Virus record (IMG/VR): IMGVR_UViG_3300038312_000388
Direction: 5' to 3' (one strand)
Length of the DNA stretch: 40,762 bases
DNA from: a virus
The notes below the pieces were generated by a model. The model saw only the letters and a list, made by a program, of their open reading frames with translations, was not told where the DNA came from and did not search any database. Positions 1,985 to 30,612 of the stretch are shown here, in pieces. Positions within the stretch are counted from its first letter, which is position 1; every line of letters begins with the position of its first letter. The position numbers were made by a program, and so were the translations under genes.

Positions 1985-3016
1985 ATGGTGGAAGAAGACG
2001 ATAACAACAAGGTTTCAACTACAATTAAGCTTAATTTCAGGTGTATTTATGAAGTTAATTTTAATCATGAGGATACTAAGGCTTTAAAAAACATAACAAA
2101 TGAATTTAATAATCTACCTAAATTTAAAGAAGACACTTTAGGAAACAGTAACGAAGGATTTATGGATTTTACAGATGATTTTAAAATAGAACCATTTATA
2201 GTTAGGCCTTGTGTAGACCCCAAAGACTCTTCAGAAACAACTAAATTGAGATATGAAAAAAAAATTTCCAATAAAGATATTTTATCTAAAAGATTTAGAT
2301 ATGCGACTTATACTGAAGGGAGAAATGAACCTAACTATGTAGAAGCAGATATTTTTTGGATTAAACCCTGTGATGTCTTATTAATTAAGGGTGGTAAATC
2401 TGCATGCGATAAAATTACAGATTATTTAATTAGATTTAATAATGTTGGCTTTACTGAAATCAAATTTGATCATGATTTTTTATTATGGATCCTCTATAGA
2501 TATGATCAGTATAATGGAGTTATGAGCAGTAGTACAACTGCAGATATAATAATTGAGAAAATTGATAAAGGGAGAACTCACGGCGAAGACACAAACGAAA
2601 ATGATATAGAATTTAAAGATGGACAATCTCGATTAATGCCATTTACAACATTATATGGATTATTAATAAACCATGAAATATTACACATTGGTGGGGACTT
2701 TCAATTTAGGAAAAAGGACCACAAAATTAATGCTAAATTAGCTAAAGATATTACTATGCACATATATGCAGATCATGTACTTAAAGGCAAATCTTATGGT
2801 GAAAAATGTGCTTTAGCCTTCCCTTTCATAATAGAAATGATGGAAATTTTTGAAAACTGGACAAAAATGCCTGCAAAAAGTAAGTATCCTGATGATAAAT
2901 TCTTCGATTCAGCGAAAGAATCATTTGAAACACAAATGCATTACTCTTTAGAAGGAATTAAAGAATTAAAGAAAAAATATAAAAAATTAAGGAAAGGGTG
3001 TTCGCATGGATCATAG
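1985..3016 (+). CDS. Hypothetical 343-aa protein, gene 1 of an AT-rich cargo operon (candidate defence)
   Basis: Long ORF; overlaps the next ORF by 11 nt; no recognised family. Confidence 0.8.
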   Translation: MVEEDDNNKVSTTIKLNFRCIYEVNFNHEDTKALKNITNEFNNLPKFKEDTLGNSNEGFMDFTDDFKIEPFIVRPCVDPKDSSETTKLRYEKKISNKDILSKRFRYATYTEGRNEPNYVEADIFWIKPCDVLLIKGGKSACDKITDYLIRFNNVGFTEIKFDHDFLLWILYRYDQYNGVMSSSTTADIIIEKIDKGRTHGEDTNENDIEFKDGQSRLMPFTTLYGLLINHEILHIGGDFQFRKKDHKINAKLAKDITMHIYADHVLKGKSYGEKCALAFPFIIEMMEIFENWTKMPAKSKYPDDKFFDSAKESFETQMHYSLEGIKELKKKYKKLRKGCSHGS

Positions 3017-3638
3017 GTTCTTTTATGTGTACGAAGTAAAAGGAAACATTAACGAATTAGACCAAGTGAATGAAAATCCTATGGAAATCGACGAAACGAA
3101 ATTTAAATTAAATTTAGACAAACGTGAAAAAATTAAATCAATAATCCCAAACTATTGTTTCTATGATCAAGAAGAAATTAAAGGCAAAATTGAAATTAAA
3201 AATGACATCCAAAGGTTAGTTCCTTTTAAAATACGATCACAATCAAAATTATTATTCATTGAAACTCCTTTTCAAAGGGAAAAATTAAAAATTATTAATT
3301 TTTTAGATCGTATATTTGAAAATTTAGAATTAGAAACATTTGTACCAACAAATAGAGCAGAAGTAAATTTTATATGCCATACAGCAAATTTTACCTCCTT
3401 TAAAGTATTTATTGATAATGAAATCGTTCGTAGCAATGAAACTGACAAAGATTTATGCGAGGGATTAATGAAAGATATGGAATTAATAGAAGTTACATTA
3501 AACATGGATATCAATAATGAAAACGTTACATTTTATTATTATGGGAATGCCATTCAATTTCCATCTTATGAACAAGACAAAGACATAGAAGGAGTTATTC
3601 AAGTATTTGAAAATACGATGATGACCCCTTCTAAATAG
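3006..3638 (+). CDS. Hypothetical 210-aa protein, gene 2 of the cargo operon
   Basis: Translationally coupled to both neighbours; N-terminal FFYVYEV resembles FRCIYEV of gene 1. Confidence 0.8.
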   Translation: MDHRFFYVYEVKGNINELDQVNENPMEIDETKFKLNLDKREKIKSIIPNYCFYDQEEIKGKIEIKNDIQRLVPFKIRSQSKLLFIETPFQREKLKIINFLDRIFENLELETFVPTNRAEVNFICHTANFTSFKVFIDNEIVRSNETDKDLCEGLMKDMELIEVTLNMDINNENVTFYYYGNAIQFPSYEQDKDIEGVIQVFENTMMTPSK

Positions 3639-3644
3639 ATTATC

Positions 3645-4313
3645 ATGTTACCCCCTAAAATCAAAACAATCACTGAATTATCATTAAAACCCCATAAGAC
3701 ATGGTTGCCTGTTTTTATTGGAGCTTGGATTGGAATTATTCCTAACCTTCCCAAATATTCTCCTCTTGAAGCTTTTCTTACACCTCTATGGTATGTTACT
3801 ATTCTCTTAATTTTACCATTCATTGCTATTTTAATTTACATACCCTTATTCTACTGGAAAATTTTCAAAAAGGTAACCATAATAAACAAAAAATATTTTG
3901 TTGATCTTATGGGAACTAATAATTTCATTGAGTTCCCTGAACTAATATTAAATGAAGATTTTGTCTCTAGATTTTCTTTTAAATTAAAATTTTATGGGGA
4001 CATATCTTCTAAACGATTAGTATTGCTTATTAAAAAAGCGCCAACGGTCAATATTTACCTCAAACAACACAATGAAAAACTAAACCAAGAATCAGAAAAC
4101 ATTACTAAGGACTTGTTTTACATAAAACAAGACTACGAACTTTTTAGTAGTTCTTTAAGTTACTCTATTTATATAGAAACTGCAAAAGCCGAAGATACAA
4201 CTAGATTAGAGATGTATCTAGAAGATGAAGAGTTCTTAAATAAAATAAGAATTAATCCCAATTTAAAACCCAAAAATTTAATTCATAGTGAAAACTTTTA
4301 CTTATCAAAGTAA
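3645..4313 (+). CDS. 2-TM membrane protein with soluble C-terminal domain, gene 3 of the cargo operon
   Basis: Two N-terminal hydrophobic segments (WLPVFIGAWIGII; LWYVTILLILPFIAILIYIPLFYW); 6 nt after gene 2. Confidence 0.8.
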   Translation: MLPPKIKTITELSLKPHKTWLPVFIGAWIGIIPNLPKYSPLEAFLTPLWYVTILLILPFIAILIYIPLFYWKIFKKVTIINKKYFVDLMGTNNFIEFPELILNEDFVSRFSFKLKFYGDISSKRLVLLIKKAPTVNIYLKQHNEKLNQESENITKDLFYIKQDYELFSSSLSYSIYIETAKAEDTTRLEMYLEDEEFLNKIRINPNLKPKNLIHSENFYLSK

Positions 4314-12261: not shown

Positions 12262-12450
12262 ATGCGCAGTGAATTAGAAGTTAAAACGGATTGGATTAAC
12301 CTGAACCATGACCTGCGAAACGTCAAATACCTCCTCAAAACACGACCCCAAGATGAGAAATTAACAGACCTGGAGGGTAAACTGGAGAAACGATTAAAAA
12401 AAGTTGAAGCTGAAAAAGCAGGACTGAAGGTGGTGGGTGATGGCCGGTAA
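12262..12450 (+). CDS. Small coiled-coil protein
   Basis: RBS ggagga; helical charged sequence. Confidence 0.6.
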   Translation: MRSELEVKTDWINLNHDLRNVKYLLKTRPQDEKLTDLEGKLEKRLKKVEAEKAGLKVVGDGR

Positions 12451-12868
12451 AAACATAACAGTGTACATTAAAAAGAAGGATGAAGCCCTTATAAAAGAGG
12501 GAAAGAATGAGGGAATTAATCCTTCTTATGCCCTTTTAGAGGGTTACAAGTACCTCATGGGTAAATCTGCAAGGTACAGTGCACTTGAAAAAGAAAGAGG
12601 CAACCTACTTCAAAGGTTAACAGAAGTTGAATCAGAAATTGACTCATTAAAAGAGGATATTATAGTTGATCCTGACATGCAAAATGAGGTAATTATCAGA
12701 TTGAGACGGGCCTACCTAAGGGAACAGGCCATTTTGCCAGATATTTTAAGGAATAATCGTGTGAAGTTGGGTATGGGTAAAGCAGAGTTTAAACAGTTAG
12801 TCCAGGAGAAAGTGATAACTCCAATTGATAAGGGTGAGATTGATGAGTTCAACATCACTTCAGTGTAG
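12437..12868 (+). CDS. Putative DNA-binding protein (RHH-like N-terminus, coiled coil) adjacent to the candidate origin
   Basis: KNITVYIKKKDEALIKEG strand-helix pattern; RBS ggtggtg; last gene of the early operon. Confidence 0.6.
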   Translation: MMAGKNITVYIKKKDEALIKEGKNEGINPSYALLEGYKYLMGKSARYSALEKERGNLLQRLTEVESEIDSLKEDIIVDPDMQNEVIIRLRRAYLREQAILPDILRNNRVKLGMGKAEFKQLVQEKVITPIDKGEIDEFNITSV

Positions 12869-12870
12869 TT

Positions 12871-13103
12871 CAGTTGCAAGTGCTGCAAGTGTAACAAGTG
12901 TAAAAATGGTATACCCTCATAAACTACACGTGCCACATACACGTTGCACGTGTACTTTTTCAAGTGTAAAAAAAACTATACGTGGAGCTTCCACGTGTAC
13001 ACATGTAGATTACACGTGGAGTTCCTTGATTATACCTTATTTTATTATATTATATATTATATTATTATTTAATTAATTATTATTAATTAATAAATTATTT
13101 ATT
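12871..13103. other. Candidate viral replication origin (iteron-like repeats plus pure-AT tract)
   Basis: CAAGTG at 12877, 12886, 12895 and 12961; CACGTG at 12927, 12947, 12992 and 13013; 67 bp containing only A/T at 13037-13103. Confidence 0.55.
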
Positions 13104-13829
13104 CTTCCTGATTATTTCTTTTAGTTCCACGATCTCAGACTGTAACTCTTGCATTTCTCCTTTTAGTTCTTGTATCTCGTTTTGTTCGCAGTTCTTTCCG
13201 GATTTTTCTGTAAGCCATGAGGCTATTTGTGCTGTGAACATCCCCAGGAAAAGGACGCCTATGATCATCACGGTCATACTGATTAGTCTGCCGGATACTG
13301 TTGCTGGGTATATATTTCCACCATCTGTTGTCATGGTTGGTAGAACATACCAGAAAGCATCTCCTAAGTTATGCACGTTTGTATTTATTCCGGCTTCTAC
13401 AATGTAAAAAAGGATTGTACCTGCAATAACAGTCATTAATAATATTCCAAAACTCCAATCAAGGTGAGTTTCCTCAATAAACTCTTTTAGAAGTTTTGAA
13501 CCTTTGTTTAGTAGGATAAGTACTCGTATTAATCTTAGAAATCTGAAAGGGGCGAATTCTATTGGTATCATTGCGATTATGTCAATCCATGTCCATTTAT
13601 TTTTAAAAAATGCTTTTTTATCTTCTGTTTCATGGAGTCTGAGCATAAAATCACAGAAAAGTATAAAACAGACAGCTAAATCAAAATAGATTATACCTTG
13701 TGCAAGTAAAACCCCTACATTAGAGAAACTAGACCATGTAATCACGAAAACATCTATGATAACTAAGAATATTATAACAATGCTTGAAATAGTTCTAATC
13801 TTCATTTTTCTACCACTCAAAATAGTCAA
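13095..13829 (-). CDS. 6TM voltage-gated-type cation channel (K+ channel family) with an atypical filter
   Basis: S1-S3, S4 FRFLRLIRV, S5, pore helix DAFWY, filter TTDGGN, YPAT.SGR, S6 and a C-terminal coiled coil. Confidence 0.9.
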   Translation of the reverse strand: MTILSGRKMKIRTISSIVIIFLVIIDVFVITWSSFSNVGVLLAQGIIYFDLAVCFILFCDFMLRLHETEDKKAFFKNKWTWIDIIAMIPIEFAPFRFLRLIRVLILLNKGSKLLKEFIEETHLDWSFGILLMTVIAGTILFYIVEAGINTNVHNLGDAFWYVLPTMTTDGGNIYPATVSGRLISMTVMIIGVLFLGMFTAQIASWLTEKSGKNCEQNEIQELKGEMQELQSEIVELKEIIRKNK

Positions 13830-13889
13830 TTAAAATTTAGTTTAAGCATACCTTACTATTTAAATCATCTTAAAAAAAAGGAAAAGAAT

Positions 13890-14273
13890 TCAGGGGTTGC
13901 ATACTTTACATGGTACGTATCCTTGAGCTATTGCTTCATCTCTTGTGTTGAAATAGACTTTATGATCCTCACTCATCTTAGATACATATCTGCAACTTGC
14001 TAAGTGGAATTTATGTGTGTTTGAATTTCCCACATATGCTGCACTTGCAGAGGATGCTGTTGTTGAGGGCGTTGCAGTAGTTGTCACTGTGCTATTCTGT
14101 TCTGTAGTTGCAGGTGTTGCTGTGTTCTCAACTGGCGTTGAAGCATTACTCATAGATGTATTTGCAGATGTTGTCATGTTATCCGAGCTTGTGCAACCTG
14201 AAACAGCAACCACACCCACAATCAAAAATACAGTTAAAACCATTATTATTTTCTTATCCATTGCATAATTCAC
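13890..14273 (-). CDS. Putative lipoprotein with a Thr/Ala/Ser linker and C-terminal Ada-type Zn-binding domain
   Basis: Signal peptide ending VSGC; YVGNSNTHKFH...C.......EAIAQGYVPCKVCNP. Confidence 0.85.
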   Translation of the reverse strand: MNYAMDKKIIMVLTVFLIVGVVAVSGCTSSDNMTTSANTSMSNASTPVENTATPATTEQNSTVTTTATPSTTASSASAAYVGNSNTHKFHLASCRYVSKMSEDHKVYFNTRDEAIAQGYVPCKVCNP

Positions 14274-14479
14274 CTCCTACTTAGTATTATTATGAGGTTT
14301 TCAGGGTTCTAATAATAAAAGTTCCTGTTCCGATTATAATAGAAAAATTTATCGAGATAATAAAGAGAAATAGAAATATTCTATTTTATTAAGACGTAGT
14401 TAACAGTTTAATTTGAGAATAAACGTTTAATTTTTGTTTAAATCAACATCTTTATAAGAACATTGAAACTTAGTTAATA

Positions 14480-14508
14480 TTAAGATGTAATAATAAGTTA
14501 CATCTTAA
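14480..14508. promoter_or_regulatory. 11-bp perfect inverted repeat next to a TATA-like box
   Basis: ttaagatgtaa-N7-ttacatcttaa followed by tataaa at 14511. Confidence 0.55.
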
Positions 14509-14531
14509 AATATAAAAGGAAGCGAAATGTT

Positions 14532-14726
14532 ATGGAAAGCAAAAAATGTATATTCTGTAAAGAAGGAACTTATGAAGAATTTGCAACTTCTTCAACAGAT
14601 CCTCGTGTTATCTCCAATGTACAAGAATTAGGATTAAGAACAATAGCTAAAAATAATTGGAAAATCTTAATTTGTAATAAATGTGGAAATATGCAGTTCT
14701 TTAGGCAAGATTTGATAGGGGAATGA
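14532..14726 (+). CDS. Small Zn-ribbon protein
   Basis: CIFCKEG...ICNKCGNMQFF. Confidence 0.7.
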   Translation: MESKKCIFCKEGTYEEFATSSTDPRVISNVQELGLRTIAKNNWKILICNKCGNMQFFRQDLIGE

Positions 14727-15030
14727 GTATTTACTCTTTTCCTTGATTATTTCTTTGAAATTTTCCTAAAAATGGAGCATAACACTTATTTTTTAAGTTT
14801 TTAGCTTTAAGATTTACTAAAGATTTGGAAGTTGTTTTTGTGAATGTTCGGTATTTGCTTGGTGGCCTGTTACAGGTTTGGAGGCTGCAAGTTGAGAATG
14901 TGTATAAATTGAAGGCTTCTTTTTATTGAAATGGTTATTTCTCATGTGGGGAAAACTTTTTTAAGATAGAATTATCCGTATATATTAATATAAAAGTCTT
15001 TCGTTTTTGGTTGAACTAAACGGAGGTATT

Positions 15031-29871: not shown

Positions 29872-30612
29872 TTAACTAATAACCTGTAAGGTGTTAATTA
29901 TCATGTCAAAACCAGGTTTATCTGCATCAAAATCTGTGGATGTCATGTGAACCTGATATAAATTATCCCCTTTAGCAAAGTATACAGCTACATATCTTCC
30001 ACCTAAGTTATTAGATAGATCATCTGTACTTTTCTCAACATATTCCATTCCACTTACACCTGCAACATTTATGTTTGTTTCAGTGTAATTACCTATTTTA
30101 GTTGCTTGTATGTCCTGAACAACTGAATCAAATGTTGCAGGAATGGCAGGAGGTCCTGCAGCATATTCCTTAATAGATACGGGTTCTTCTACAAACACAT
30201 TACAATTTATGTTAGAAGAATGGGGGACATTACCTGTTCCAAATGCTAATTTATTGGTTGAACTTTCTGTCCAACTACTTGGATATTCAAACGTAAACGT
30301 TCCGTCTGAATAAGTTGTGTTAGTTATACCATGACTGGGAAAAATAAACCCACTTATTACAATTATTACAATTACACCAATACAACAGAGAAATGCAAGT
30401 CCTAACCATGGATTGCCTTTACTATCCACACTTTCAGATTTAACCTGTTTATCAGTGTCTTCCACCCCCTTAATTGATGCTTTGCCCTCATTTAAATTCT
30501 CAACATATTCTAGTTTTCCACCACACTGGCATTTATTGCTGAAGTCTGAGGGGTTTTCTCCTGGTTGGAGTTCATAATAACCTCCACATTTATTGCATTT
30601 TAGGTAACCCAT
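29872..30612 (-). CDS. Membrane protein: N-terminal Zn ribbon, TM helix, extracellular PsbP-like domain (moron)
   Basis: CNKCGGYY...KCQCGGKL; LAFLCCIGVIVIIVISGFIF; TYSDGTFTFEYPSSW; opposite strand inside the tail operon. Confidence 0.82.
   Translation of the reverse strand: MGYLKCNKCGGYYELQPGENPSDFSNKCQCGGKLEYVENLNEGKASIKGVEDTDKQVKSESVDSKGNPWLGLAFLCCIGVIVIIVISGFIFPSHGITNTTYSDGTFTFEYPSSWTESSTNKLAFGTGNVPHSSNINCNVFVEEPVSIKEYAAGPPAIPATFDSVVQDIQATKIGNYTETNINVAGVSGMEYVEKSTDDLSNNLGGRYVAVYFAKGDNLYQVHMTSTDFDADKPGFDMIINTLQVIS

What the first reader, a model, noticed from the sequence alone, without database searches (positions are those of the whole stretch)
13095..13829. Proviral voltage-gated-type channel with a rewritten selectivity filter
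Seen: a complete 6TM architecture with an Arg-bearing S4 and a C-terminal coiled coil. The filter (nt 13314-13331) reads T-T-D-G-G-N, one residue shorter than and different from T-T-V-G-Y-G-D, and the pore helix contains a Pro (WYVLPT). Established: TVGYG confers K+ selectivity, and NaK (TVGDG) is non-selective. Inference: a non-selective or Na+-permeable channel, or a dominant-negative subunit of a host K+ channel. It could alter membrane potential for superinfection exclusion or abortive infection in a cell that uses Na+ and H+ gradients.
Basis: partly seen in the sequence, partly recalled or inferred. Interest (0 to 1): 0.76.

Follow-up and report, generated by a model that had tools for sequence, protein, structure and literature searches.

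The report
Host-derived odd-pore channel in methanogen provirus
A tailed provirus of a Methanobacterium-type methanogen carries a working-looking voltage-gated-type ion channel gene without the potassium signature, but the odd pore is an inherited trait of a host channel family, and the gene sits in a cargo slot that sibling proviruses fill with other genes, including a defence-type kinase.

Summary
The ORF at 13095-13829(-) most likely starts at ATG 13805, giving 236 aa. It is a KvAP/Kv-like six-helix channel with a three-Arg S4, a Pro in the pore helix, a C-terminal coiled coil, and a pore loop TTDGGN that is one residue shorter than TTVGYGD.

The loop is neither a sequencing error nor a viral rewrite. 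PTM(A/T)TDGGNI.P is conserved in 10 of the 11 members of its subclade that cover the loop; one has TNGG. These include chromosomal, non-viral genes of Methanobacterium paludis and related MAGs. That group sits in a well-supported Methanobacteriaceae clade of non-canonical filters nested among canonical TVGYGD channels. dN/dS is 0.08-0.26.

The proviral copy is a single-gene cassette (about 13090-13893) that shares its upstream TATA region with a chromosomal copy. It occupies a variable slot after a conserved 143-aa early gene. Sibling proviruses carry a PD-T4-6/Stk2-like kinase or other cargo there.

Non-selective or divalent-sensitive cation conduction is a reasonable inference but is untested. 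A dominant-negative role is unlikely. A defence role is supported only by position.

Verdict: a real channel and a new variant of a known kind, of moderate interest.

The parts
13095..13805 (-). Channel coding sequence, 236 aa plus stop.
   Evidence: the homologues start at MKI. Pfam Ion_trans, Ion_trans_2 and Lig_chan match. KvAP is the best solved relative. The AF2 model has a Kv fold.
13734..13787 (-). S1 helix (residues 7-24)
   Evidence: Hydropathy and segment mapping; AF2 helix 3-27.
13635..13712 (-). S2 helix (residues 32-57), with invariant F50 and an acidic residue at position 52 (charge-transfer-centre positions)
13554..13595 (-). S3 helix (residues 71-84), with D75 and the invariant S3b proline P81
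   Evidence: The S3b Pro is typical of KvAP/KvLm-type sensors (PMC2151562).
13500..13550 (-). S4 voltage-sensor helix (residues 86-102) with R88, R91, R94 and K101. It is shortened relative to sister subclades, which carry 3-4 more Arg repeats.
   Evidence: Alignment A1; AF2 helix 88-113.
13389..13466 (-). S5 helix (residues 114-139)
13335..13370 (-). Pore helix (residues 146-157), NLGDAFWYVLPT. P156 sits at the position of KcsA E71, as read from the alignment to KcsA-type chains.
13314..13334 (-). Pore loop M-T-T-D-G-G-N (residues 158-164), one residue shorter than the canonical T-T-V-G-Y-G-D
   Evidence: DNA contigs of two studies are identical here.
13203..13301 (-). S6 inner helix (residues 169-201), including FTAQIASWLT
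13098..13187 (-). C-terminal heptad-repeat helix (residues 207-236), the presumed tetramerisation coiled coil
   Evidence: The sequence shows 3-4 hydrophobic spacing. AF2 gives a continuous helix 170-235. The chromosomal 290-aa forms have this region lengthened by extra repeats.
13806..13889 (-). Upstream region of the channel gene. An oligo-T run (13872-13886) follows the neighbour's stop. An archaeal TATA-like TTTAAATA lies at 13857-13864, 52 nt before the ATG. This region is shared with L003 and with the chromosomal copy L005.
   Evidence: Assigning these motifs as promoter and terminator is inference.
13890..14273 (-). Neighbouring reverse-strand gene, probably starting at ATG 14261. It has a signal or lipobox-like N-terminus (..VSGC), a Thr/Ser-rich linker and a C-terminal Ada_Zn_binding/'sunset'-like domain. 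Channel-less sibling proviruses also carry it, so it is a fixed neighbour and not part of the channel cassette.
12869..13094 (.). Intergenic boundary element (CAAGTG/CACGTG repeats plus an AT-only tract). Homology to three sibling elements ends at 13089-13101, right at the channel's stop codon, so this is the left border of the variable slot.
12437..12868 (+). Conserved 143-aa early gene that marks the left side of the cargo slot in all sibling proviruses

Best explanation
The gene encodes a functional tetrameric cation channel with a voltage sensor. It belongs to a Methanobacteriaceae-specific lineage of small KvAP/MVP/KvLm-like channels that has given up the potassium signature.

Shown here:
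- The channel has the Kv fold and a six-helix topology.
- Its voltage sensor is charged but shortened.
- The remodelled pore is conserved as PTM(A/T)TDGGNI.P: Val becomes Asp, the Tyr is deleted, the trailing Asp becomes Asn, and a Pro sits in the pore helix.
- The gene is under purifying selection.
- It has a chromosomal (host) origin.
- In the provirus it is a one-gene cassette in a variable slot.

Inferred, not tested:
- The shortened loop cannot build the four K+ sites of TVGYG. It probably forms a short, wide NaK-, CNG- or iGluR-like filter that passes Na+ and K+ and is sensitive to divalent cations through the Asp ring.
- The cassette arrived with upstream sequence shared with the chromosomal gene, including a TATA-like box, and it points against the flanking phage genes. 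It is therefore probably transcribed on its own in the lysogen.
- There it would add the same cation conductance that the chromosomal gene gives other Methanobacterium strains (ion or membrane-potential homeostasis). Through its effect on membrane potential it may also hinder competing viruses.
For: Fold and family:
- Pfam Ion_trans and Ion_trans_2 match.
- KvAP is the best solved relative, E about 1e-15.
- The AF2 model has pLDDT 85.7 and Kv channels are the top Foldseek hits.

Conserved filter and clade:
- Ten of the 11 subclade members that cover the loop, at 61-95% identity, carry TDGGN; one has TNGG.
- In the tree, a 22-row clade of non-canonical filters (support 98/96) nests among TVGYGD channels.
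- The TDGG subclade has support 100/99, and the window sits deep inside it.

Selection:
- dN/dS is 0.08 against L003, 0.19 against L005 and 0.19-0.23 against the M. paludis type.
- The filter codons differ only synonymously.

Host origin:
- In M. paludis CP002772 and a MAG, the gene lies among Lon, HTH_5, Lactamase_B, SSF and AMP-binding/ACT genes, with no viral genes nearby.
- L005 and L017 are also chromosomal contexts.
- The upstream TATA region is shared with L005.

Cassette and slot:
- Sibling proviruses, 92-100% identical in shared modules, carry other cargo after the same 142-aa gene: a PD-T4-6/Stk2-like kinase, a DUF553 protein, or a NimA-like gene with NERD and DpnII-like genes.
- The left border falls at 13089-13101 in three comparisons.

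Pore character:
- The TDGG clade scores 34-36 bits on Pfam Lig_chan (iGluR pore), above the 30.8 cut-off. Canonical relatives score 17-27.
- Its Ion_trans_2 score drops from 59-69 bits to about 40.

Precedents:
- NaK (TVGDGN) keeps two sites and is non-selective (PMC9822992 abstract).
- NirBac channels keep a K-channel scaffold with replaced P-loops and are non-selective (PMC4607889).
- KvLm senses voltage with only three of eight conserved sensor charges (PMC2151562).
Against: - There is no functional measurement of any member of this clade, so selectivity cannot be read from sequence with certainty.
- The acidic residue is not universal. Sister subclades have E, N, A, T or V at that position, so an 'Asp ring' role is specific to this subclade at best.
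- One chromosomal short copy (G004:C10) carries an in-frame TGA and a frameshift, which hints that the gene is dispensable in some hosts. Assembly error is also possible.
- Most sibling proviruses found here lack the channel, so it is not needed for the viral cycle.
- Assigning L003 and the P0002 contig to proviruses rests on one flank or on the sunset-gene neighbour only.
- No host genome is held for this window, so it is unknown whether the lysogen also has a chromosomal copy.
Confidence: 0.55

Rival explanations
1. Defence or superinfection-exclusion effector. The lysogen uses the channel to collapse or shift membrane potential, either constitutively to block genome entry by other viruses or on infection as an abortive-infection switch.
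For: The gene is a reverse-strand, stand-alone cassette in a slot where sibling proviruses carry a kinase matching PD-T4-6/Stk2 defence models (E 9e-53). A related element also carries DpnII-like and NERD genes there. Membrane-depolarising defence effectors such as RexB are established (own knowledge).
Against: The channel matches no PADLOC model. The same protein type is an ordinary chromosomal gene in non-defence neighbourhoods. No sensor or partner gene is linked to it. The sunset-domain neighbour is also present in channel-less siblings.
Confidence: 0.2
2. Divalent-cation channel. The four Asp161 side chains form a high-field-strength ring, so the channel selects Ca2+, Mg2+ or a trace metal instead of passing monovalent cations freely.
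For: D161 aligns with the filter Val and sits at the loop apex position. By the Pfam Lig_chan match this region resembles the iGluR pore loop. Rings of acidic residues give divalent selectivity or block in Cav, CNG and TRPV5/6 channels (own knowledge).
Against: The position varies (D, E, N, A, T, V) between sister subclades, and P0007 has Asn within the TDGG group. The side-chain orientation is unknown.
Confidence: 0.15
3. An ordinary K+-selective voltage-gated channel despite the unusual loop.
For: The overall Kv fold is kept. The two threonines before the loop and two glycines are retained. JGI annotates close homologues as 'voltage-gated potassium channel'.
Against: The Tyr and one position of the signature are missing and Val is replaced by Asp. 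The Ion_trans_2 score is 20-30 bits lower than in canonical relatives. NaK and NirBac show that smaller or comparable departures abolish K+ selectivity.
Confidence: 0.1
4. A non-conducting or dominant-negative subunit that co-assembles with a host channel and silences it.
For: Methanobacterium genomes hold 3-4 paralogues of this small channel family, so partners could exist. The coiled coil could mediate mixed tetramers.
Against: The proviral protein has the same pore loop, sensor and coiled coil as the chromosomal genes. Its one difference within the 11-residue pore-loop motif from the other nine TDGGN members is A159T. Nothing marks it as a poison version.
Confidence: 0.05
5. A functionless passenger, recently picked up and decaying.
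For: It is absent from most sibling proviruses. One chromosomal relative looks broken.
Against: The frame is intact. dN/dS is 0.08 against the L003 copy at dS 0.6. The upstream TATA region is conserved.
Confidence: 0.03

Closest known systems
KvAP (Aeropyrum pernix), MVP (Methanocaldococcus jannaschii) and KvLm (Listeria): small prokaryotic 6TM voltage-gated K+ channels
   Same: The six-helix fold, an S4 with Arg at every third position, the S3b proline, the S2/S3 acidic and aromatic sensor residues, and the size (about 210-290 aa). They are the best sequence matches: KvAP at E 1e-15 and the KvLm pore at E 1e-10 in PDB, and the NCBIfam MVP model at 42 bits.
   Different: Those channels have TVGYGD and are K+-selective. 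This one has TDG-GN, a Pro in the pore helix, a shorter S3-S4 region and a C-terminal coiled coil. Its MVP equivalog score is far below the cut-off (42 against 300).
NaK (Bacillus cereus) and CNG-type non-selective pores
   Same: A K-channel-derived pore loop with a departure from GYG, an Asn after the second Gly (NaK: TVGDGN), and an acidic residue in the loop. The expected loss of the outer K+ sites is also shared (PMC9822992).
   Different: NaK is a 2TM channel with a loop of canonical length. Here the loop is one residue shorter, the Asp precedes the first Gly, and a voltage sensor is attached.
NirBac channels (PMC4607889)
   Same: A clade that keeps the whole scaffold of a K+ channel family but has replaced P-loops. 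It nests within canonical relatives and has been shown to be non-selective. This is the best precedent for the evolutionary pattern seen here.
   Different: NirBac has a Kir/KirBac scaffold, is bacterial, and its loop sequences are unrelated. None is reported on a virus.
Phage- and virus-encoded K+ channels: Lactobacillus phage JNU_P5/PLE 'ion transporter', Vibrio phage channels, and chlorovirus Kcv (PMC6163359)
   Same: They are virus-borne, host-like channel genes. JNU_P5 encodes a 251-aa 6TM channel with a C-terminal coiled coil next to its cI/Cro genes. It is 29% identical to this protein.
   Different: The phage channels I examined or read about have canonical filters: TTVGYGD in JNU_P5 and (T/S)T(I/V)GFGD in the Vibrio phages. 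They infect bacteria or algae. I found no archaeal-virus case in that review (the word 'archaea' occurs 0 times) or in the phage collection.
Ionotropic glutamate receptor pore (Pfam Lig_chan PF00060)
   Same: The TDGG clade passes the Lig_chan gathering score over the pore helix, loop and S6 (33.7-36.5 bits against 30.8), while canonical relatives do not. From my own knowledge, iGluR pore loops are also one residue shorter than K+ filters and are non-selective.
   Different: There is no ligand-binding domain, the topology is not inverted, and a voltage sensor is present. The match is modest and partly reflects the general S6 similarity between K+ channels and iGluRs.

Membership tests
Voltage-gated-like tetrameric cation channel superfamily (Pfam Ion_trans PF00520 / Ion_trans_2 PF07885) | The Pfam models are matched above their gathering scores | tested here: met
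   Ion_trans scores 39.6 bits (cut-off 25) and Ion_trans_2 scores 39.5 bits (cut-off 22.5).
Voltage-gated-like tetrameric cation channel superfamily | Six transmembrane helices, with S1-S4 as the sensor and S5-P-S6 as the pore | tested here: met
   KvAP aligns from S2 to S6. Hydropathy agrees. AF2 places the helices accordingly and Foldseek's top hits are Kv1/2/4/7 over 200-250 columns.
Voltage-gated-like tetrameric cation channel superfamily | An S4 with basic residues at every third position, plus S2/S3 counter-charges | tested here: met
   R88, R91, R94 and K101 are present. F50 is invariant, position 52 is D/E, D75 is present and P81 is invariant. The sensor has fewer charges than sister subclades.
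Voltage-gated-like tetrameric cation channel superfamily | Assembly as a tetramer around a central pore | not testable with these tools
   Only a monomer model was obtained. Tetramer formation is inferred from the family and from the C-terminal heptad repeats.
K+-selective channels (Kv in the strict sense) | The signature filter T-x-G-Y/F-G, with four K+ sites | tested here: not met
   The loop is T-T-D-G-G-N with a one-residue gap against T-T-V-G-Y-G-D in both HMMER and MAFFT alignments.
K+-selective channels (Kv in the strict sense) | Measured K+ over Na+ selectivity | not testable with these tools
   This needs flux or electrophysiology experiments.
NCBIfam NF040645 K_channel_Meth (MVP, hyperpolarisation-activated K+ channel, equivalog) | A score at or above the equivalog cut-off | tested here: not met
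   The score is 42.5 bits against a cut-off of 300.
NaK-type non-selective channels | A TVGDGN filter of canonical length on a 2TM pore-only subunit | tested here: not met
   The loop is one residue shorter, the Asp is in a different place, and the architecture is 6TM.
Ionotropic glutamate receptor channels (Pfam Lig_chan PF00060) | The Pfam model is matched above its gathering score | tested here: met
   The score is 33.7 bits (cut-off 30.8) over residues 149-210. This is specific to the TDGG clade.
Ionotropic glutamate receptor channels | An extracellular S1/S2 ligand-binding domain flanking the pore | tested here: not met
   No such domain appears in the 236 residues. The only Pfam matches above their cut-offs are the three channel models.
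Known anti-phage defence proteins (PADLOC-DB 2.0) | A match to any defence-system model | tested here: not met
   The channel matches 0 families. The kinase that replaces it in sibling proviruses matches PD-T4-6/Stk2 at E 9e-53.
Prophage/provirus moron (accessory cargo gene) | The gene lies inside a provirus, is transcribed independently of the flanking modules, and is present or absent among close relatives | tested here: met
   The window holds an integrase, a Bro-N gene, a PCNA-like gene, TerL, portal, protease, capsid and tape-measure genes. The gene lies on the opposite strand and GC skew inverts over it. The slot holds other cargo in siblings L018-21 and L026-27. Independent transcription is inferred from the conserved TATA region and has not been measured.

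The most novel reading that the evidence does not exclude
A stand-alone voltage-gated, non-K+-selective cation channel serves as a provirus-borne exclusion or abortive-infection device in methanogens. It would be interchangeable at one genomic slot with a PD-T4-6/Stk2-type kinase and other defence cargo. Voltage-sensor channels would then be a new class of antiviral effector, and this would be the first channel gene described on an archaeal virus. A related possibility is that the Methanobacteriaceae clade represents an undescribed filter type (TDGG/TEGS/TAGS) with its own ion preference.
Probability: 0.15. Interest if true: 0.85.

Novelty: new variant of a known kind. Interest (0 to 1): 0.55.

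Why it matters
For channel biology, this is a natural experiment. A well-supported, lineage-restricted clade keeps the whole Kv scaffold, but its pore loop has diversified into several conserved non-canonical forms, one of them a residue short with an Asp at the Val position. Measuring what these pores conduct would test how much of the K+ signature can be lost, and what replaces it, in a voltage-gated frame. NirBac did the same for the Kir scaffold.

For archaeal virology, it is a clean case of a host membrane-transport gene captured as a one-gene cassette into a cargo slot of a tailed methanogen provirus. I found no earlier archaeal-virus example in the literature and collections I could search. 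The slot itself, which also holds a kinase, DpnII-like, NERD, NimA-like and DUF553 genes in siblings, is a ready-made place to look for methanogen defence and fitness genes. The sequence occurs in runs labelled as single organisms, so bench tests may be feasible.

Tried and rejected
- Tetramer prediction (four copies, with an alignment) returned 'no answer' (score 0.16). It says nothing either way.
The third gave the monomer model used above.
- RNA evidence: one oligo-dT metatranscriptome contig covers only 12400-12771, the neighbouring 143-aa gene. Nothing was laid on the channel. All runs were contigs, so this is no evidence about expression.
- IMG/VR scans with the channel alignment, the 143-aa protein and TerL found no relatives. 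Megablast of the late region against GenBank phages found nothing.
- No whole genome is held for the window, so a chromosomal paralogue in the same host could not be sought.
- A direct alignment to solved iGluR chains could not be obtained, because K+ channels fill the top 60 hits even with a 35-residue query. The iGluR likeness therefore rests on the Pfam scores only.
- Literature searches for the motif (TDGGN and similar) and for methanogen-virus channels gave nothing relevant.
- Rfam found nothing in 12300-15000, and there are no tRNA genes in the window.
- A sequencing-error or singleton origin is rejected.
- A lysis-timing (holin-like) role was considered. It is thought unlikely because the gene lies on the opposite strand, has its own host-type upstream region, is far from the putative lysin gene at the right end, and is missing from most siblings.
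Full report
**1. What is at the coordinates**

The minus strand carries an ORF at 13095-13829, 244 aa from a TTG. Every full-length close homologue starts at the in-frame ATG at 13805 (MKI...), so I take the gene as 13095-13805, 236 aa, and number residues on that protein.

- Pfam matches Ion_trans (E 4e-10, residues 15-204), Ion_trans_2 (E 5e-10) and, unexpectedly, Lig_chan (E 4e-8, 33.7 bits against a cut-off of 30.8).
- The best solved relative is KvAP (6uwm/1orq, E about 1e-15). KcsA, the KvLm pore and Kv1/Kv7 channels follow.
- Hydropathy, segment mapping and an AlphaFold2 model (pLDDT 85.7) give S1-S6, a pore helix at 147-158, a loop at 159-169, and an S6 that runs on into a long C-terminal helix with heptad spacing.
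- Foldseek's best hits are Kv1, Kv2, Kv4 and Kv7 channels, aligned over both sensor and pore.
- S4 has R88, R91, R94 and K101. The S2 Phe and acidic residue, the S3 Asp and the S3b Pro are in place.
- KvLm shows that a sensor with few charges can still gate (PMC2151562).

**2. The pore loop**

The codons at 13314-13331 read T-T-D-G-G-N. HMMER against KvAP and MAFFT over 170 relatives both place a one-residue gap, aligning TTDG-GNIYP against TTVGYGDxxP. The Pro of WYVLPT is real.

Contigs of a 2020 soil run and a 2024 fermentation run match 12400-14400 with no differences wherever they were laid. This includes the filter codons. The AT-rich stretch 13029-13109 was skipped as repeat. One of the two runs may be the source of this DNA, and the stretch is held in full by runs of five studies.

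**3. Not a viral rewrite**

A search of 5.8 billion proteins gave 21 relatives.

- Ten of the 11 subclade members that cover the loop, at 61-95% identity, carry PTM(A/T)TDGGNI.P. One (P0007) has TNGG.
- The first Thr of TTDGGN is peculiar to this copy. The family has Ala there.
- More distant relatives (42-50% identity) have other conserved non-canonical loops: TEGSNN, TAGSSS/TAGSSN, TVGADG, TVGSVD and SGNSD.
- Below about 45% identity, the canonical TVGYGD takes over.

A maximum-likelihood tree puts all non-canonical forms in one clade (22 rows, support 98/96) nested among canonical small Kv channels. The TDGG group has support 100/99, and the window sits deep inside it next to P0002 and P0003.

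Named records and MAG labels place the clade mostly in Methanobacterium and Methanobacteriaceae. Complete genomes of that group hold 3-4 paralogues of the small-channel family.

**4. Host genes**

- In M. paludis (CP002772) and a related MAG, the 290-aa TDGG channel lies between Lon/HTH_5 and Lactamase_B/SSF/AMP-binding/ACT genes.
- None of the window's phage proteins hits those loci.
- The 243-aa form, about 80% identical to the window's protein, lies beside ACT, AMP-binding and rubredoxin genes (L005).
- A further short copy lies in a chromosomal setting among SOD, peroxiredoxin and ferritin genes. It is interrupted by a TGA at a conserved Trp and by a frameshift (L017).

**5. Selection**

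Pairwise Nei-Gojobori dN/dS is 0.08 (window against L003, dS 0.60), 0.19 (against L005) and 0.19-0.23 (against the M. paludis type, dS about 1.0-1.3). The filter codons differ only by synonymous changes, apart from the A/T at position 159. The loop is maintained by selection.

**6. The proviral setting**

The window holds an integrase (1-996), a Bro-N gene, a PCNA-like gene, the terminase large subunit, portal, a protease-containing head protein, major capsid and tape measure, almost all on the plus strand. The channel and its neighbour (13890-14273) lie on the minus strand, and GC skew inverts over them. The neighbour is a signal or lipobox protein with an Ada_Zn_binding/'sunset'-like domain.

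The 143-aa gene just left of the channel (12437-12868) has homologues on contigs up to 195 kb. Around them lie sibling proviruses that are 92-100% identical to the window in shared modules. After that gene the content differs:

- L018-L021 have a Ser/Thr kinase, genes of 229 and 274 aa, and then the same sunset gene. The kinase matches the PD-T4-6/Stk2 defence models at E 9e-53.
- L026/L027 have a 127-aa gene, a 598-665-aa DUF553 protein and small ORFs.
- L003/L004 have two sunset genes, a channel (88% identical), a NimA-like nitroreductase, and NERD and DpnII-like genes.
- The more distant L022/L023 have no reverse-strand cargo there.

Homology to three siblings stops at 13089-13101, exactly at the channel's stop codon. 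For L019 it resumes at 13894, the neighbour's stop codon. The channel is therefore a one-gene cassette of about 800 bp.

Its upstream 60-90 nt are shared with L003 and with the chromosomal L005 copy. This stretch includes a TTTAAATA box 52 nt before the ATG and follows an oligo-T run. The gene was probably taken together with its own promoter. That last step is inference.

**7. How it most likely works**

- Shown: the fold, the sensor, the conserved remodelled loop, purifying selection, the host origin, and the cassette in a variable slot.
- Inferred: a loop one residue short, without the Tyr and with Asp for Val, cannot form the four-site K+ filter.
- Precedents:
  - NaK (TVGDGN) keeps two sites and is non-selective (PMC9822992).
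  - NirBac channels, which combine a K+ scaffold with replaced loops, are non-selective (PMC4607889).
  - From my own knowledge, deleting YG from Shaker gives CNG-like non-selective, divalent-blocked pores, and iGluR pore loops are also one residue short.
- In line with this, the TDGG clade scores 34-36 bits on Lig_chan, against 17-27 for canonical relatives. It also loses 20-30 bits on Ion_trans_2.
- I therefore favour a voltage-gated, non-K+-selective cation channel, probably sensitive to divalents through D161.

Expressed from its own promoter in the lysogen, it would add the conductance that the chromosomal gene provides elsewhere. Whether that benefit is physiological or antiviral is open. 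The slot-sharing with a defence-type kinase is suggestive only, and the channel hits no defence model.

**8. Comparison with what is known**

Virus-borne K+ channels are documented in chloroviruses, Vibrio, Mycobacterium and Lactobacillus phages (PMC6163359).

- In GenBank phages, the best tblastn matches to this protein are only 25-31% identical.
- One of them, the Lactobacillus phage JNU_P5 'ion transporter' next to cI/Cro, is a 251-aa 6TM channel with a coiled coil and a canonical TTVGYGD filter.
- I found no archaeal-virus channel, and no description of the TDGG-type loop, in the searchable literature.

It is thus a new variant of a known kind on two counts. It is an undescribed filter lineage within the Kv-like superfamily, and it is a new host range for virus-borne channel genes.

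**9. Verdict**

Non-canonical, probably non-selective conduction is plausible. The 'rewritten by the virus' and 'dominant-negative' readings are not supported. A defence role is speculative.
- Interest is moderate (0.55). The finding is less singular than proposed, because the filter is a family trait. It is more solid and more testable than a singleton would be.

Noticed in passing
window 12869-13094; L019 10430-10642 and 12825-13000: The repeat-rich, AT-rich intergenic element that another note calls a candidate origin always lies between convergent genes. It occurs twice in sibling provirus L019, at module boundaries. This fits a bidirectional terminator or a recombination linker for cargo exchange at least as well as it fits an origin.
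   Followed up: partly
L018-L021 (e.g. L019 10691-11947, minus strand): In place of the channel, sibling proviruses carry a 418-aa Ser/Thr kinase matching the PADLOC PD-T4-6/Stk2/mad6 defence models (E 9e-53). They also carry a 487-aa pentapeptide-repeat protein a little further on.
   Followed up: partly
L003 211-2102 and 4683-5150: A related element carries a DpnII/MboI-like endonuclease, a NERD protein and a NimA-like (5-nitroimidazole reductase family, 136 bits, below the cut-off) PNPOx protein around its channel cassette.
   Followed up: no
window 13890-14273 versus L003 2305-3806: The window's 127-aa sunset-domain gene matches the first L003 sunset gene (124 aa) over its whole length at about 84% protein identity. 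Its C-terminal domain also matches the C-terminus of the second L003 sunset gene (351 aa). This suggests that recombination between the paralogous C-terminal domains removed the second gene.
   Followed up: partly
L017 9919-10612 (G004:C10:85118-85729): A chromosomal short-type TDGG channel copy carries a TGA at a conserved Trp codon and a frameshift before the coiled coil. It is a probable pseudogene, or an error of a long-read assembly. The same genome also has an intact 290-aa copy.
   Followed up: partly
window 1985-4313: The three-gene operon (343, 210 and 222 aa) is 100% identical at protein level in siblings L018/L019, although neighbouring genes differ by 6-25%. Two of its proteins (343 and 222 aa) hit no PADLOC model, and Pfam finds nothing in any of the three.
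   Followed up: partly
window 29872-30612 (minus strand): The N-terminal 40-60 residues of this second reverse-strand gene resemble the N-terminus of the NERD protein of L003, and ORFs in L012/L013 (49-59% identity). This is probably a shared zinc-ribbon or membrane-anchor module.
   Followed up: no
L010 and L011: Two loci with 43%-identical channel genes come from MAGs labelled Bacteroidota and Anaerolineales. Their channel genes match the window as closely as those of the Methanobacterium loci L008 and L012, so these contigs may be mis-binned.
   Followed up: no
L024 1363-2118 (Lactobacillus phage JNU_P5): A temperate Lactobacillus phage encodes a 251-aa 6TM channel with a canonical TTVGYGD filter and a C-terminal coiled coil, beside its cI/Cro genes. 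This is a bacterial-phage parallel to the present case.
   Followed up: partly
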